Shown here: positions 15,308 through 18,566 of the stretch, piece by piece | Layout: every line of letters begins with the position of its first letter | Position numbering within the stretch: the stretch's first letter is position 1 | The notes under the pieces: model-generated | What the model was told of the DNA's origin: nothing | What the model saw: only the letters and a program-made list of their open reading frames with translations | Database searches by the model: none | Source of the DNA: Dehalococcoidia bacterium | GTDB lineage: Bacteria; Chloroflexota; Dehalococcoidia; UBA2979 | Direction: 5' to 3' | Length of the DNA: 64,000 bases | NCBI GenBank assembly: GCA_965220125.1 | Contig: CBDCPB010000004.1 | Coordinates: forward strand, 1,580,775 to 1,644,774 | Translations under genes and position numbers: made by a program

Positions 15308-16390
15308 CTAGTCCATCATCATCACCTGCCGCGTGACCTCGCCGCCCTTCATGATCTCCAGGAAGTCGTTGACGTCCTCGAGCGAGCCGCGGGTGGTGAT
15401 CATCTCGTCGAGCTTGAGCCGGCCCTGCATGTAGAGGTCGATGAGCATCGGCAGGTCCATGCGGAAGCGGTTCGAGCCCATCATGCAGCCCTGGATCCGC
15501 TTCTCGCCGCTCAGCCGCCGCCAGCCGAAGTTGAGCGGCTGATCCTCCGGGATCACGCCGATCAGCGTCGCGGTGCCCTGCGGCCGCAGGCAGTCGAGCG
15601 CCTGCATCGCCACGCTCGCCAGCCCGATCGCGTCGAACGAGTAGTGGACGCCCTCGCCGTCCGCGATCGCGCGGATCGCGGCGACGGGGTCCTCGTTCGC
15701 CCCGTTCACGGTGTGCGTCGCGCCGAACTCGCGCGCGACCTCGAGCTTGCTGTCCAGCAGGTCGACCGCGATCACGCGCTGGCAGCCGGAGACGACGCCG
15801 CCCTGGATCGCGGACAGCCCGATGCCACCGCAGCCGAAGACCGCGATCGAGGAGCCCGCCTCGACGTGCGCGGTGCGCATCACCGCGCCGAAGCCGGTGA
15901 TCACCGCGCAGCCGAGCAGCGCGGCCGCGTCGAGCGGCATCTCATCGGCGATCTTCACCACGCCGTTCTCGTGCAGCAGCATCTGCTCCGACCAGCCGAA
16001 GATGTTGGAGCCCCACTGGTTGAGGCGCTGGCCGTTCCAGGACATCACCGGCGGGTCGTCCGCACTGCGGCCGGGGCGGCTCGTGCAGACGTTGAGGTGC
16101 CCCGTCAAGCACATCTCGCAGTGGCCGCAGAACGTACCGCGCGCGATCACGTGGTCGCCCGGCTGCACGTAGCGGACGCGGCTCCCGACGCGCTCGACGA
16201 CGCCCGCGGACTCGTGGCCGAGCACGGCGGGCGGGGGCACGGGCGAGTGGCCCTCGACCATATGCAGCTCGGAGTGGCACACGCCCGCGGCGGCGGTGCG
16301 GACCAGCACCTCGTAGTCGCCCGGCTCGTCCACCTCGATGTTCTCGATGGTCAGCGGCTGGTTCACGCCGTGGAAGACGGCTGCTTTCAT
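15308..16390 (-). CDS. Zn-dependent alcohol dehydrogenase
   Basis: CHS, GHESAG, CGHCEMC...C, GCGGIG. Confidence 0.92.
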   Translation of the reverse strand: MKAAVFHGVNQPLTIENIEVDEPGDYEVLVRTAAAGVCHSELHMVEGHSPVPPPAVLGHESAGVVERVGSRVRYVQPGDHVIARGTFCGHCEMCLTGHLNVCTSRPGRSADDPPVMSWNGQRLNQWGSNIFGWSEQMLLHENGVVKIADEMPLDAAALLGCAVITGFGAVMRTAHVEAGSSIAVFGCGGIGLSAIQGGVVSGCQRVIAVDLLDSKLEVAREFGATHTVNGANEDPVAAIRAIADGEGVHYSFDAIGLASVAMQALDCLRPQGTATLIGVIPEDQPLNFGWRRLSGEKRIQGCMMGSNRFRMDLPMLIDLYMQGRLKLDEMITTRGSLEDVNDFLEIMKGGEVTRQVMMMD

Positions 16391-16579
16391 CCCGTACCCC
16401 TCTCGATGCGCGCGATCGGGCGCGGGCGGACGCTACACGACGCCAGCCGCCGATGCCACACGGCAGGCCGGTTGGAGCGAGGGCAATCCGGTCCCGCTCG
16501 GAGGTGAGGGGGCTCCGGGGCCGAGCGCGTCTCTCCTGTGGGGGGCCCTGCGAGGTTTCCTCGCGTCCTGAGCGAAGCA

Positions 16580-16680
16580 GCCCCCCACACCCCCATCCCG
16601 GACGAGCGCGCTGCGCGCGACTCGACCCACCCACCCGCCCTCGGATTTTCTCTCTGTGGGGGCTACGCCCCCACGCCCCC
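16580..16680. repeat. Dispersed palindromic repeat module (second copy at 22678-22783)
   Basis: GCCCCCCACACCCCCATCCCGGACGAGC...GACCCACCCACCCGCCC...GGATTT...CTGTGG..GGCT.CGCCCCCACGCCCCC shared by both loci. Confidence 0.8.
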
Positions 16681-16773
16681 ACCGGAGCGGATGCGAGAGG
16701 CGCGGGCTCGCGGACGAGGGTGGTCCGCTCTCGGGCCTCACCCCTCGCGCGCCCGACATCGAGAGGGCCGAGG

Positions 16774-17034
16774 CTACTCGTGCGGGTGGTGCGGATGTTC
16801 GTGGTGGTCCGCCGAGCCCTCACGGGGCTCCTCGGAGTCGCTTCAGCAGCCGGGCTCGCCGAGGTTGCCGCAGCAGAGCGAGAGCGTGCGCGCCATGGTC
16901 CACTTGTTGCGGGCGAAGAGCCGGAGCTTGACCGGGAACGGCGCGTCGTAGCGCTGGAAGTTGAGGTAGGTGGTGCGCCAGCTCCCGACGAAGCCGGCGA
17001 CGAGACCGCACAGCCAGTGCCAGCCGTTCGCCAC
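16774..17034 (-). CDS. Small Cys-rich protein, candidate selenoprotein (TGA at 16843-16845 read as Sec; 86 aa with read-through, 63 aa without)
   Basis: GTG start with GGAGGG RBS; ...CCGNLGEPGC-TGA-SDSEEPREGSADHHEHPHHPHE-TAG; hairpin right after the TGA. Confidence 0.65.
16808..16836 (-). promoter_or_regulatory. Candidate bacterial SECIS hairpin
   Basis: mRNA UCCG-AG-GAGCCC-CGUGA-GGGCUC-GG-CGGA starting 7 nt after the UGA; apical loop 18-19 nt from the UGA with G in its first two positions. Confidence 0.55.
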
Positions 17035-17237
17035 GCCTCGCCCTCCCGGTCCGCCGATGCACCCACAGGATACCGCGCGAGGAGCGCTCGACGCCGCGCT
17101 TGATCGCTCCGCGCAGGTACCCGACCGAAACGCCGTCTGCTGGTATGCTCCCCTCTGCGCGCCGGAGCGGCGGCGCAGGCCGCCAGCCCGAGGTCCGGCG
17201 AGCGGTCACGGGGCGAGCACCGAACGGGGAACCGCCG

Positions 17238-18566
17238 ATGTTCATCATGTACTTCACCGAGCAGCCGATGTCCGCCTACCCGGAGGAGGAGGCGCGAGAG
17301 CGCGACGGCCTCACGGTGCTCCGCTTCTCCAACGAGTTCTATGACTCCGATGCGGGCAGCGCGATCTACCAGGACCGCCTGGCCGAGTACAAGCTCGTCG
17401 ACGAGGTCGGCTTCGACGGCATCATGCTCAACGAGCACCACAACGCGCCGTTCTGCATGCAGCCGCAGATCCAGATCTGGGCCTCGATCCTCGCGGCCGT
17501 CACCAACAACGTGAAGATCGTGCTGCTCGGCGTGCCCCTGCCGCTGCGCGACAACCCCGTCGCGACCGCCGAGGAACTCGGCATGATCGACATGATCTCG
17601 CAGGGCCGCCTCGTGCCCGGCCTGATCCGCGGCGGCGGCACCGAGCAGTTCGCGATGAACGCCAACCCCGCCTACAACCGCGACCGCCTCGAGGAAGCGC
17701 ACGACCTGATCATCAAGACCTGGACGGAGCCCGGCCCGTTCCGCTGGGAAGGCGACCAGTACCACTTCCGCGTGGTCAACCCGTGGGCGCTGCCCGTGCA
17801 GAAGCCGCACCCGCGCATCTGGGTGCCCGGCACGTCCAGCCTCGAGACCGTGCAATGGGCGGCGGCGCACCGCTACCCCTACATCGGCCTCGGAACGGAC
17901 GAGCGGGCGCAGAAGCGGATCATGGGCACCTACAAGGAGGTCGCCGCCGAGAAGGGCTACGAGGTCGGCACCTGGAACTTCGGCCAGACCATCCACTTCC
18001 ACGTGCAGGACACGATGGAGCACGCGATGCGCAACGCGCGCGAGTTCATGTGGATGGCGGGCGAGTTCACCGGTCTCGGGCACCCCGTGTGGAGTTCGCC
18101 CTCGGGCTACCTCTGGGGCGCGCCGGACTCCCCGGCCGCGATCGCGCGGCGGCGCGGCGCCGTGGCCCGCAACAACCAGCGCACCGGCGCCAAGGGCCTC
18201 AAGTCCGCCGGCGGCGGCGCCGACTCCGGCGCGACGCTGCAGAAGCACCTCGACGACCTGACCTGGATCATGGGCGACCCGGACCACGCGATCGCGCAGC
18301 TGCGCAAGGTGCTCGAGCAGACGCGGCCCGGCATCGTCAGCTTCTACGCCACCGACGGCCACATCAGCCACCGCGACAACATGCGCAACATCGAACTGAT
18401 CGGGAAGGAGGTCATCCCGGCCATGCGCGAGATGGCCAAGGAACTCGACCTCAAGAGCCCCTTCGATGTCGACGTGCCGATCAGCCTCGCGACGACCCCG
18501 CCCGAGGATCTCAAGCCATACGAGTACTCGCTCGAGGACGACCCGATGTTCGCGAACATCGCCTAG
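17238..18566 (+). CDS. LLM-class flavin-dependent oxidoreductase
   Basis: GFDGIMLNEHH, AEELGMIDMISQGRL, PVQKPHPRIW. Confidence 0.9.
   Translation: MFIMYFTEQPMSAYPEEEARERDGLTVLRFSNEFYDSDAGSAIYQDRLAEYKLVDEVGFDGIMLNEHHNAPFCMQPQIQIWASILAAVTNNVKIVLLGVPLPLRDNPVATAEELGMIDMISQGRLVPGLIRGGGTEQFAMNANPAYNRDRLEEAHDLIIKTWTEPGPFRWEGDQYHFRVVNPWALPVQKPHPRIWVPGTSSLETVQWAAAHRYPYIGLGTDERAQKRIMGTYKEVAAEKGYEVGTWNFGQTIHFHVQDTMEHAMRNAREFMWMAGEFTGLGHPVWSSPSGYLWGAPDSPAAIARRRGAVARNNQRTGAKGLKSAGGGADSGATLQKHLDDLTWIMGDPDHAIAQLRKVLEQTRPGIVSFYATDGHISHRDNMRNIELIGKEVIPAMREMAKELDLKSPFDVDVPISLATTPPEDLKPYEYSLEDDPMFANIA

What the first reader, a model, noticed from the sequence alone, without database searches (positions are those of the whole stretch)
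16774..17034. Candidate novel small selenoprotein: CCGNLGEPGC-U with a SECIS-like hairpin and His-rich tail
Seen: the 63-aa ORF stops at TGA directly after Cys. Read-through gives SDSEEPREGSADHHEHPHHPHE-TAG, an acidic/His-rich tail unlikely in random high-GC DNA. Immediately 3' of the UGA the mRNA folds into lower stem UCCG/CGGA, a 2x2 internal loop, upper stem GAGCCC/GGGCUC and a CGUGA loop 18-19 nt from the UGA. Established: this geometry fits the bacterial SECIS model, and adjacent Cys-Sec is a known redox motif. Inference: a CC...CU redox or metal-binding microprotein, divergently transcribed from the LLM/CoA-transferase cluster, that standard gene callers would truncate.
Basis: partly seen in the sequence, partly recalled or inferred. 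Interest (0 to 1): 0.82.

Follow-up and report, generated by a model that had tools for sequence, protein, structure and literature searches.

The report
New small selenoprotein family, CC…CU motif
The 63-codon gene that seems to stop at TGA is most likely a real selenoprotein, one of a widespread family of tiny proteins that public databases list only as truncated hypothetical proteins.

Summary
The minus-strand ORF 17034..16846 ends CCGNLGEPGC-TGA. Reading through gives 22 more residues and a TAG.

- **Machinery:** the genome has selA, selB, a Sec-containing selD and tRNA-Sec(UCA).
- **Conserved codon:** of 78 distinct homologous genes read at DNA level in the class, 70 have TGA at this column and 8 have a Cys codon. 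None has TAA or TAG, although only 46% of this genome's putative genes stop with TGA.
- **Cys forms:** seven of the eight Cys-form genomes have no selA hit, and the Cys forms lack the hairpin.
- **Hairpin:** it sits at a fixed distance, with the G of a loop GU about 22-25 nt after the U of UGA. Six core pairs covary. The FdhA and UGSC-family selenoprotein genes of this genome show the same geometry.
- **Tail:** His codons after the TGA lie in the read-through frame (230, against 28 and 21).
- **Range:** at least 403 loci in Chloroflexota, Actinomycetota and others.
- **Novelty:** no Pfam, NCBIfam or PDB match, and no matching row in a 2026 table of 119 selenoprotein families.
- **Function:** untested. 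My best guess is a metal-binding or redox CC…CU site on a helical hairpin.

The parts
16846..17034 (-). First 63 codons (GTG start to Cys63). Predicted helix 2-28, helix 33-50, then the loop CCGNLGEPGC.
   Evidence: The start is ATG at the same position in relatives L022, L024 and L025.
16843..16845 (-). TGA read as selenocysteine (residue 64).
   Evidence: TGA in 70 and a Cys codon in 8 of 78 distinct class homologues read at DNA level; never TAA or TAG. Sec machinery is present.
16777..16842 (-). 22-codon tail SDSEEPREGSADHHEHPHHPHE. Its first part encodes the SECIS hairpin; its second part is His-rich.
   Evidence: Cys-form database homologues also carry His-rich tails.
16774..16776 (-). 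True stop codon, TAG.
   Evidence: Second stops across 70 homologues: TAG 37, TAA 17, TGA 16.
16814..16830 (-). Conserved core of the SECIS element: stem GAGCCC/GGGCUC with loop CGUGA. The G of the GU lies 22 nt after the U of the UGA.
   Evidence: FdhA and the UGSC-family gene of this genome have the same offset.
16808..16836 (-). The lower stem is specific to the nearest relatives.
17041..17047 (-). Shine-Dalgarno-like GGGAGGG, 6 nt upstream of the GTG.
   Evidence: Read directly.

Best explanation
This is a real gene for an 86-residue selenoprotein, not a 63-residue protein.

**Decoding (inferred from comparison).** The UGA at 16845..16843 is read as selenocysteine. SelB carrying Sec-tRNA(UCA) is recruited by the stem-loop that starts 12 nt after the UGA (GAGCCC-CGUGA-GGGCUC). 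Translation then runs 22 codons further to the TAG.

**The protein (partly predicted).** It belongs to an undescribed family built from three parts:

- a basic helical hairpin;
- an invariant loop CC-G-[NH]-x-G-[EQD]-P-G-C-[U/C];
- a variable tail that is His-rich in many lineages.

**Function (inference, about 45%).** The two vicinal pairs, Cys-Cys and Cys-Sec, lie seven residues apart around a Gly/Pro turn. I think they form a three-sulfur, one-selenium site that binds a soft or transition metal, with the His-rich tail adding capacity. That would make the protein a small metal buffer or chaperone.

The stated confidence is for the identity and the decoding mechanism, not for the function.
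For: **1. The machinery is present.**
- selA scores 530 bits and selB 296 bits, over its cut-off.
- selD has an in-frame TGA.
- tRNA-Sec has anticodon UCA.

**2. The codon is conserved as TGA or Cys.**
- The family was found in 38 of 61 related genomes and in 157 of 401 genomes of the class, 83 of 222 genera.
- I read 78 distinct homologues at DNA level. 70 have TGA and 8 have TGT or TGC at the column; none has TAA, TAG or another sense codon.
- Stop usage in 2241 putative genes of this genome is TAG 1076, TGA 1032 and TAA 133.
- Among the best 80 loci from 185,579 species genomes, 82 motif instances have TGA and 1 has TGC.

**3. Sec/Cys pairs exist.**
- Database proteins P0014, P0016, P0034, P0042, P0088, P0106, P0152 and P0156 read ...PGCC and continue, often with a His-rich tail.
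- Seven of the eight Cys-form genomes of the class have no selA hit. selA was found in 301 of 401 genomes overall.

**4. The hairpin behaves as a SECIS.**
- 51 of 54 TGA forms carry it, against 1.7% of ordinary TGA stops.
- On 59 of 70 sequences aligned without gaps, the six core pairs are formed in nearly all of 53 distinct rows. Each pair shows changes on both sides in 3 to 27 rows.
- The covariation score is 0.521, against 0.165 +/- 0.017 in shuffles (0 of 500 reach it) and 0.05-0.22 for slid partners.
- The first three Cys-form loci scanned lack the GC hairpin. None of the eight Cys-form loci given to the covariance model gave a hit.
- FdhA (TIGR01591, 661.8 bits) and a UGSC-family gene of the same genome have 8-9 bp stems with GUC or GUG loops at offset 22.

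**5. The tail is in frame.**
- His codons in the 90 nt after the TGA number 230 in the read-through frame and 28 and 21 in the other two frames.
- 30 of 70 tails have three or more His.
- Actinomycetota copies have His-rich tails of up to 61 residues.

**6. Gene callers truncate it.** About 130 of the 150 listed database hits end exactly at the Cys before the TGA.

**7. No terminator-like site** lies in 16350..17300.

**8. A weak sign of transcription.** A 287-nt metatranscriptome contig, 92% alike, spans 16783..17043 and so runs across the TGA.
Against: - There is no protein-level evidence of any kind. No selenium labelling or mass spectrometry is available.
- The folding energy of this single sequence is no better than that of shuffles (z 0.09).
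- 11 of 70 hairpins do not fit the simple ungapped register and were left out of the covariation count. That count therefore leans towards the structure. Six of the 70 have no GU in the scanned stretch: five from the main scan and L099, whose loop reads CUUGA.
- One TGA-form genome (G383, 98% complete) showed no selA and no selB over the cut-off.
- Kin are not independent. 23 of the 30 His-rich tails come from one genus.
- For the function:
  - the C-terminal 36 residues are modelled as coil with low confidence;
  - the tail is only 2-4 residues long in 10 of 70 members;
  - Cys forms can end CCE or CCD, so the His tail cannot be essential;
  - the gene neighbourhood in this genus gives no hint.
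Confidence: 0.9

Rival explanations
1. Same selenoprotein, different chemistry. The C-terminal Cys-Sec pair is a redox centre that cycles between selenenylsulfide and selenolthiol, and the upstream Cys-Cys pair reduces it. The small protein would then be a mobile electron-carrying arm or a peroxide or disulfide reductant, not a metal binder.
For: - Most known selenoproteins are thought to serve redox functions (review PMC13188914, section 7, read).
- The site sits on a flexible, unstructured C-terminus.
- Cys forms end ...GCCE or ...GCCD.
- From recall, not from a call: these endings resemble the GCUG and SCCS C-terminal redox tails of large thioredoxin reductases.
- Tails of only 2-4 residues occur in 10 of 70 members, so the His stretch is dispensable.
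Against: - His-, Asp- and Gly-rich tails recur in many separate lineages and in Cys forms. A pure redox shuttle would not need them.
- No thioredoxin-like fold or partner reductase domain is present.
- No reductase gene is a conserved neighbour.
Confidence: 0.3
2. The ORF really ends at the TGA and gives a 63-residue protein. The conserved hairpin would be a terminator, an mRNA stabiliser or a regulatory element, and the downstream 'tail' would not be translated.
For: - TGA is a common stop in this genome (46%).
- GC-rich hairpins are frequent in DNA of 70% G+C.
- The folding energy is unremarkable.
- In some members the in-frame stop comes only 2-4 codons after the TGA.
- G383 has the TGA form, yet no selA or selB was found in it.
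Against: - TAA or TAG never stands at this column in 78 class sequences, nor in the 83 motif instances from the wider collection.
- Cys codons stand at exactly this column in lineages without a selA hit, and those proteins run on.
- The hairpin is missing where Cys replaces TGA.
- His codons are roughly ten times commoner in the read-through frame.
- There is no T-run and no terminator-like site.
- The hairpin's offset equals that of the FdhA and UGSC SECIS elements of this genome.
Confidence: 0.04
3. The selenoprotein works together with central-metabolism enzymes encoded beside it. One version: it protects or services the exposed [4Fe-4S] cluster of isopropylmalate isomerase (LeuCD) by capturing soft metals or by repairing the cluster.
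For: - In 8 of 22 class loci the gene lies in or near a leu cluster, and in several of them in the order leuC-leuD-X-(aat)-leuB.
- In 15 of 79 loci from the wider collection an Aconitase_C gene ends right at its start on the same strand. By record title these come from Dehalococcoidia, Anaerolineae, Chloroflexia and Tepidiformaceae.
- In 7 loci that I matched to Actinomycetota-titled records it lies among genes for malate dehydrogenase, an Iso_dh-family enzyme, citrate synthase and SdhA.
- From recall: dehydratase Fe-S clusters, including that of isopropylmalate isomerase, are targets of copper and other soft metals. For PMC9576991 I saw only the search listing and the start of its abstract.
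Against: - The link is synteny only.
- It is absent in this window's genus, where the neighbours are an alcohol dehydrogenase and a luciferase-like monooxygenase, and in most of the loci examined.
- No binding test was run.
- Long-lived operon order could explain the pattern without any functional tie.
Confidence: 0.15

Closest known systems
KCU-star / DUF466 (YbdD/YjiX-type) small selenoproteins (NF033934, PF04328)
   Same: A small protein of about 60-70 residues with a vicinal Cys-Sec (or Cys-Cys) pair at or near the C-terminus. Sec and Cys forms occur in different lineages, and the function is unknown. Source: Haft preprint 10.1101/2022.07.06.499078, passages read; review table.
   Different: No sequence relationship: neither the NCBIfam nor the Pfam model matches at E <= 1. 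That family ends K-C-U-stop and lies beside CstA-type transporters. This one has a second Cys-Cys pair, a Gly/Pro turn and usually a tail after the Sec, and it occurs in Chloroflexota and Actinomycetota.
SaoC, the Cys-Cys-COOH selenoprotein of the SAO system (NF040734)
   Same: A CC or CU dipeptide at the C-terminal end. In some members the SECIS lies after the stop codon, as in this family's members with 2-4 residue tails. The authors read the CU motif as a likely heavy-metal ligand.
   Different: SaoC averages 158 residues, has a signal or lipoprotein peptide and occurs only in the nine-gene SAO neighbourhood. This family has no signal peptide-like N-terminus, no SAO genes as conserved neighbours, and no NF040734 match.
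C-terminal redox tail of large thioredoxin reductases (GCUG; SCCS in insects). Recalled, not from a call.
   Same: A vicinal Cys-Sec (or Cys-Cys) pair preceded by Gly on a flexible C-terminal arm, with natural Sec-to-Cys replacement.
   Different: No flavoprotein domain is attached. This is a free-standing protein of 50-90 residues. The resemblance is one of chemistry only.
SECIS elements of FdhA and UGSC-family selenoprotein genes in the same genome
   Same: A GC-rich stem of 6-9 bp that starts 12-15 nt after the UGA. The apical loop is 3-5 nt and contains GU, with the G 22 nt after the U of the UGA.
   Different: The stem sequences are unrelated. The covariance model built from this family scores the UGSC element only weakly (14.8 bits, E 1.6) and did not list the FdhA element.
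Metal-binding selenoproteins with CU or UxxU motifs (MbdU NF045648; MerT-type; HgcA) and His-rich metallochaperone tails. The latter are recalled.
   Same: Cys/Sec clusters read as metal ligands. His/Asp-rich tails are typical of Ni, Zn and Cu handling proteins (recalled).
   Different: No model of these families matches. No metal transporter or hydrogenase-maturation gene is a conserved neighbour.

Membership tests
Bacterial SECIS-dependent selenoprotein gene | Sec machinery (selA, selB, selD, tRNA-Sec with anticodon UCA) in the same genome | tested here: met
   selA 530 bits, selB 296 bits, selD 364 bits with an in-frame TGA, and tRNA-Sec at 73 bits, which ARAGORN reads with anticodon tca.
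Bacterial SECIS-dependent selenoprotein gene | In-frame TGA conserved at one column across many homologues (the Haft preprint asks for 100% TGA and at least 10 examples) | tested here: met
   70 TGA and 8 Cys codons among 78 distinct class sequences, with no other stop. 82 TGA and 1 TGC among the best 80 loci of the wider collection.
Bacterial SECIS-dependent selenoprotein gene | Cys-containing homologues aligned with the TGA | tested here: met
   DNA-verified TGT or TGC in L048, L049, L050, L084, L093-L095, L100 and L110. Eight database proteins read ...PGCC and continue.
Bacterial SECIS-dependent selenoprotein gene | Stem-loop just downstream of the UGA with a G-containing apical loop at a constrained distance | tested here: met
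   51 of 54 TGA forms against 1.7% of ordinary TGA stops. Covariation 0.521 against 0.165 in shuffles. bSECISearch itself could not be run.
Bacterial SECIS-dependent selenoprotein gene | Protein-level conservation or coding signal continuing past the TGA | tested here: met
   His codons 230, 28 and 21 by frame. His-rich tails occur in Cys forms. The tail is otherwise variable, and only 2-4 residues long in 10 of 70.
Bacterial SECIS-dependent selenoprotein gene | Selenium shown in the protein (75Se labelling or mass spectrometry) | not testable with these tools
   No proteomic data were reachable. RNA contigs show only that a 92%-alike copy is present in an RNA library.
KCU-star / DUF466 (NF033934, PF04328) | Match to the family model | tested here: not met
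   No NCBIfam hit at E <= 1 for the window protein or for 10 homologues. No such Pfam hit in any of 78 members at E <= 0.1.
SaoC (NF040734) and other listed CU-motif families (SaoL, HgcA, MbdU) | Match to the family model | tested here: not met
   no NCBIfam model matches, apart from one chance-level acyl-CoA synthetase row at E 0.17.
Intrinsic (rho-independent) terminator | GC-rich hairpin followed by a T-run | tested here: not met
   No terminator-like site in 16350..17300 on either strand. GGCGGACCACCAC follows the stem.

The most novel reading that the evidence does not exclude
A widespread family of selenium-containing microproteins has gone unrecognised. It was found at 403 or more loci in species-representative genomes of Chloroflexota, Actinomycetota and Dormibacterota. 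In this reading it is a bacterial seleno-metallothionein or metallochaperone. Its CC...CU site and His-rich tail would capture soft metals such as Cu(I). Where it is encoded between leuD and leuB, it would shield or service the exposed Fe-S cluster of isopropylmalate isomerase. That would be a new physiological use of selenocysteine.
Probability: 0.2. Interest if true: 0.8.

Novelty: new variant of a known kind. Interest (0 to 1): 0.62.

Why it matters
**Annotation.** Public databases hold this gene only as a truncated 'hypothetical protein' of about 50-63 residues. Every one of those entries lacks its likely key residue and its tail.

**A new family.** It would add a family to the 119 listed in 2026 (PMC13188914, Table 1). 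By record titles, the phyla are Chloroflexota, including SAR202-like sponge symbionts (my inference from one sponge RNA run, and recalled isolate names), and Actinomycetota.

**An unusual site.** Two vicinal chalcogen pairs, CC and CU, with a His-rich tail form an uncommon arrangement. The Haft preprint calls the CU motif relatively rare and links it to heavy-metal chemistry.

**Testability.** The protein is small, so the questions are cheap to test by peptide chemistry, metal titration and reporter read-through.

**SECIS models.** About 150 natural hairpins of this family (70 in the class, 82 in the wider collection, partly overlapping) form a clean comparative set for SECIS models in high-G+C bacteria.

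Tried and rejected
**Searches that found nothing useful**

- **Single-sequence folding**: no signal, z 0.09. The case rests on comparison instead.
- **Pfam Shisa_N** (E 0.016, below its cut-off; 3 of 78 members): a chance match to the Cys-rich stretch.
- **Structure and annotation searches:**
  - Foldseek against the PDB: no match at E <= 10.
  - PDB sequence profile: only chance rows at E 0.23 or worse.
  - ESM Atlas with the Cys form P0014: only unnamed clusters at 0.84, which is lead level.
  - Rfam on 16300..17300: nothing at E <= 1.
- **Covariance model R1** on the window and 11 loci. The other window hits score 18.5 bits or less, and the six I checked have no TGA upstream, so they are chance GC hairpins. 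The hits on the selD and UGSC elements are weak (E 1.6-2.3), so I give them little weight.

**Weak or unverifiable observations**

- **RNA runs**. All four are assembled contigs of metatranscriptomes with a small share of the sampled words. Only one record bridges the TGA with 31 or more letters on both sides. DNA carry-over cannot be excluded. Parts without cover mean nothing.
- **W, G or R at the Sec column** in P0013, P0079, P0139, P0146, P0157 and P0053. These are probably TGA read under another code by the source pipeline. I could not check this without their DNA.
- **P0037**, an 819-residue protein with 10 repeats. It matches only the N-terminal helix part of the profile and lacks the Cys motif, so I treated it as unrelated.

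**Steps not taken or not possible**

- The metagenome-contig scan was not used.
- The look-up of encoding contigs was not called because it is closed.

**Basis for 'not found in print'**

- Searches.
- Table 1 of PMC13188914, read in full.
- Passages of BSepDB, PMC13326102.
- Passages of deep-Sep, PMC12013277.
- Passages of the Haft preprint.
- Not seen: Haft and Tolstoy 2025 and Haft and Gwadz 2023 in their journal versions, which are not held, and BSepDB Table S2, because supplements are closed. These could list the family.

**Genomes flagged unpublished**

The selA tally (301 of 401) includes G271. The phylum tally (30 of 301) includes G658. No sequence was fetched from either, and no other claim rests on them.
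Full report
**1. What is in the window.**

- On the minus strand a GTG at 17034 opens a 63-codon ORF. It ends ...TLSLCCGNLGEPGC and is followed by TGA at 16845..16843.
- A GGGAGGG lies 6 nt upstream of the GTG.
- Reading TGA as a residue adds SDSEEPREGSADHHEHPHHPHE before TAG at 16776..16774.
The stem is GAGCCC/GGGCUC (16830..16825 and 16819..16814) and the loop is CGUGA. A weaker lower stem UCCG/CGGA flanks it.
- Taken alone the stretch folds no better than shuffles (z 0.09).
- The neighbours are a Zn-alcohol dehydrogenase downstream on the same strand, and, divergently, a luciferase-like monooxygenase and a double family III CoA-transferase.
- No Pfam or NCBIfam family matches either form of the protein.

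**2. The genome can make selenoproteins.**

- The assembly holds 3.9 Mb in 4 contigs at 70% G+C.
- It carries selA (530 bits), selB (296 bits, over the cut-off) and a selD with an in-frame TGA.
- It also carries a tRNA with anticodon UCA that both Rfam's tRNA-Sec model and ARAGORN call tRNA-Sec.
- Read through, a formate dehydrogenase alpha subunit (TIGR01591, 661.8 bits) and a UGSC-family domain (NF041046) also carry in-frame TGAs.

**3. The TGA is conserved as TGA or Cys, never as another stop.**

- A six-frame search with the read-through protein hit 38 of 61 related genomes. Nearly every good hit had one TGA inside, and the alignment ran past it.
- With a profile of 26 members (A1), 157 of 401 genomes of the class were positive, in 83 of 222 genera.
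- I fetched and read loci from this sample.
  - 70 distinct sequences have TGA directly after ...PGC.
  - 8 have a Cys codon there: L048, L049, L084, L093-L095 and L100, plus the variant L050.
  - None has TAA, TAG or any other codon.
- In this genome only 1032 of 2241 putative genes end in TGA, so conservation of an ordinary stop would not give this pattern.
- Record titles name the organisms as Dehalococcoidia.

**4. The family reaches well beyond the class.**

- Other classes of the phylum carry it: 30 of 301 genomes in the phylum sample. The sequences I read from that sample were 11 TGA forms, 1 TGC form (L110), one atypical locus (L111) and one without the motif (L112), 14 loci in all.
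- The titles of the best 80 name Dehalococcoidia, Anaerolineae, Chloroflexia, Thermoflexus, Herpetosiphonaceae, Tepidiformaceae, Acidimicrobiia, Actinomycetes including Streptosporangiaceae, a Dormibacterota candidate, and one Hyphomicrobiales-labelled MAG.
- In those 80 loci, 82 motif instances have TGA and 1 has TGC.

**5. Sec/Cys pairs and co-occurrence with the machinery.**

- In the library of 1.84 billion representatives the profile found 312 proteins at E <= 0.001.
- About 130 of the 150 listed end exactly at the Cys before the TGA. That is what truncation by a gene caller produces.
- Eight continue as ...PGCC plus a tail, often His-rich. Examples are P0014...GEPGCCISSGSHASGDAHPHDHQH, and P0156.
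- selA was found in 301 of 401 class genomes. By my comparison of the two tables, 12 of the 157 family-positive genomes lack it.
  - Seven of the 12 are Cys forms: G047, G088, G291, G404, G130, G326 and G371.
  - Four are TGA forms in incomplete assemblies that do have selB over its cut-off: G053, G087, G105 and G402.
  - One, G383, is 98% complete and has the TGA form, but no selA and no selB over the cut-off were found. This stays an unexplained exception.
- One Cys form (G072) sits in a selA-positive genome.

**6. The hairpin behaves as a SECIS.**

- Of the first 54 TGA forms, 51 have a stem of 5-8 bp closing a 3-5 nt loop that contains GU. In all 51 the loop starts 20-25 nt from the U of the UGA. 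All 54 have some hairpin there.
- The first three Cys-form loci do not have it, apart from one weak AT-rich 5-bp pairing.
- Among 1032 ordinary TGA stops of this genome, 18 (1.7%) meet the same criteria, and some of those are true selenoprotein genes.
- The stem sequences differ widely. Examples are GAGCCC/GGGCUC, GGCGUCCG/CGGACGCC, GGGACUG/CAGUCCC and CCUCCU/AGGAGG. The loop keeps GUG, GUC, GUU, GUA, CGUGA or CGUGC.
- For a formal count I aligned, without gaps and centred on the GU, the 59 of 70 distinct sequences that have at least 4 pairs in that register (A3).
- The other 11 were left out. Most have 4-nt GGUC loops or a bulge; six have no GU in the scanned stretch (five from the main scan, plus L099). 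Because of this selection the percentage of paired cells leans towards the structure.
- On A3 the six core pairs are formed in 46-53 of 53 distinct rows, with changes on both sides in 3-27 rows per pair.
- The covariation score is 0.521. Shuffles give 0.165 +/- 0.017 (0 of 500 reach it), and partners slid by 1-3 columns give 0.05-0.22.
- In the FdhA and UGSC-family genes of the same genome the loop (GUC, GUG) starts at offset 22 on stems of 8-9 bp. This matches the candidate, whose G of the GU is at offset 22.
- No terminator-like site and no T-run follows the hairpin.

**7. The tail.**

- Tails in the class run from 2 to 35 residues. The second stop is TAG in 37, TAA in 17 and TGA in 16.
- The stretch EP(R/G)(E/A)GS is the translation of the stem-loop (GAG CCC CGU GAG GGC UCG). 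Its conservation is therefore driven by the RNA.
- Where the tail is only 2-4 residues long, the hairpin lies partly or wholly beyond the true stop.
- Beyond the hairpin, 30 of 70 tails have three or more His. 23 of those come from the window's genus, and 7 come from loci outside that genus.
- His codons in the 90 nt after the TGA number 230 in the read-through frame, against 28 and 21 in the other frames.
- Copies whose record titles name Actinomycetota have His-rich tails of up to 61 residues, and one Acidimicrobiia copy has an 83-residue tail that is not His-rich.
- Together with the His-rich tails of the Cys forms, this shows that the frame after the TGA is used.

**8. The protein.**

- The invariant columns over 78 members are the two Cys of the CC pair and the Gly-Cys before the Sec. 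The Asn residues, the Gly residues and the Pro of CCG[NH]xG[EQD]PGC are nearly invariant.
- AlphaFold2 on that alignment gives two helices, 2-28 and 33-50. Residues 51-86 are coil. Mean pLDDT is 68.7 and pTM 0.40.
- Nothing similar turned up in the PDB by fold or by sequence, in Pfam for any of the 78 members, or in NCBIfam for the window protein and 10 homologues. The ESM Atlas gave only unnamed clusters.
- Where database members carry a name at all, it is 'hypothetical protein'.

**9. Context.**

- In the window's genus the gene stands alone, and six congeneric genomes carry two tandem copies, each with its own TGA and hairpin.
- In 8 of 22 class loci it lies in or near a leucine-biosynthesis cluster. 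In several of these it sits directly behind leuD and before leuB, sometimes with a Leu/Phe-tRNA-protein transferase gene in between.
- In 15 of 79 loci from the wider collection an Aconitase_C gene ends at its start on the same strand.
- In 7 loci that I matched to Actinomycetota-titled records it lies among genes for malate dehydrogenase, an Iso_dh-family enzyme, citrate synthase and SdhA.
- This is synteny only. I read it as a lead, not as evidence of a partner.

**10. How it most likely works.**

- **Supported by comparison:** the UGA is a conserved, SECIS-associated Sec codon in a Sec-competent genome.
- **Inferred:** SelB carrying Sec-tRNA binds the GU loop while the ribosome is at the UGA and inserts Sec. 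Translation then ends at the TAG.
- **Inferred with less confidence:** the two vicinal pairs CC and CU, seven residues apart around G-x-x-G-x-P-G, close on each other.
  - I put about 45% on a metal site, because the His/Asp-rich tails recur in separate lineages and because the Haft preprint links CU motifs to heavy metals.
  - I put about 30% on a redox relay of the thioredoxin-reductase-tail type (recalled).
  - The rest covers other roles. The suggested link to LeuCD (about 15%, listed among the rivals) is a context that would go with either chemistry, not a fourth option.

**11. Known or new.**

- The 2026 review's table of 119 prokaryotic selenoprotein families (PMC13188914, section 7, read) has no row that fits. 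Nearly all rows carry Pfam or NCBIfam identifiers, and none of these models matches here.
- The CU-motif families (KCU-star/DUF466, SaoC, SaoL, HgcA, MbdU) are analogues in chemistry only.
- The deep-Sep families come from Desulfobacterota.
- BSepDB reports Dehalococcoidia MAGs with 46-49 selenoprotein genes, but it searches only for known families. I could not see its family list because supplements are closed.
- My reading is therefore a new family of a known kind of gene.
- The family meets the Haft preprint's criteria of at least 10 examples and universal TGA at the site. Similarity running through the U residue is met in related lineages only. Cys forms are often shorter (some end one residue after the column), so equal lengths for Sec and Cys forms are not shown.

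**12. Verdict.**

- It is a solid, publishable annotation-level discovery with an open and testable function.
- It does not change how selenoproteins are understood, hence a middling-to-good interest score.

Noticed in passing
window 16580-16687 (within the 16391-16773 spacer between the selenoprotein gene and the alcohol dehydrogenase gene): A repeated element of about 105 nt. BLAST of 16398-16767 against the genome gave 106 hits, most of them covering this stretch. The 40 rows I looked at are 74-93% identical. The spacer is also bounded by composite inverted repeats, 16398-16429 and 16743-16767. It looks like a REP- or MITE-like intergenic repeat.
   Followed up: partly
G000 C2 near 108983, 192970 and (minus strand) 595349; C4 (minus strand) 2687382; loci L109, L108, L010: Other likely selenoprotein genes in the same genome. 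Four paralogous large proteins have a D/N-U-G-[SG]-C motif, and one of them was checked as a UGSC family domain fused to about 460 further residues. There is also an FdhA with U in ...SCNRT-U-HAPS and a SelD with U in ...SCGG-U-AGK.
   Followed up: partly
G000, seven places (for example C2 28527 and 550361; C4 2184590): A repeated ORF end ...CTAYNLKRAVRLLPA-TGA followed by an identical 9-bp hairpin (CCCGGGGCG/CGCCCCGGG). It is probably the end of a multi-copy insertion sequence, not a Sec site.
   Followed up: no
L026-L031 (genomes G001, G002, G005, G009, G010, G011): Six congeneric genomes carry two tandem copies of the gene about 60-70 nt apart. Each copy has its own TGA, hairpin and His-rich tail. 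The second type reads ...CU-RDVEEPREGS....
   Followed up: partly
L068, L069, L072, L073, L077, L078, L081 and 15 of L204-L282: The gene is embedded in leucine-biosynthesis clusters, in the order leuC-leuD-X-(Leu/Phe-tRNA-protein transferase)-leuB, in several Chloroflexota classes. In 7 Actinomycetota-titled loci it lies beside malate dehydrogenase, Iso_dh, citrate synthase and sdhA genes.
   Followed up: partly
G383:C34 (L091): A 98%-complete genome has the TGA form with a good CGUGA hairpin, here placed after a TAA four codons downstream. Yet no selA and no selB over the cut-off were found; only a 48.8-bit tRNA-Sec-like hit appeared. Either the machinery is unassembled or the Sec trait was lost recently.
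   Followed up: partly
G072:C12 (L100): A Cys form (TGC-GAG-TGA, ending ...GCCE) in a selA-positive genome. Just after the stop it still shows a short pairing with a GU-containing loop like that of its TGA-form relatives L103 and L104. This suggests a recent Sec-to-Cys change.
   Followed up: no
L142 / L221 (Acidimicrobiia MAG): After the TGA and hairpin the frame stays open for 83 residues of charged, helix-like sequence that is not His-rich. It may be a fusion of the family with a further domain.
   Followed up: no
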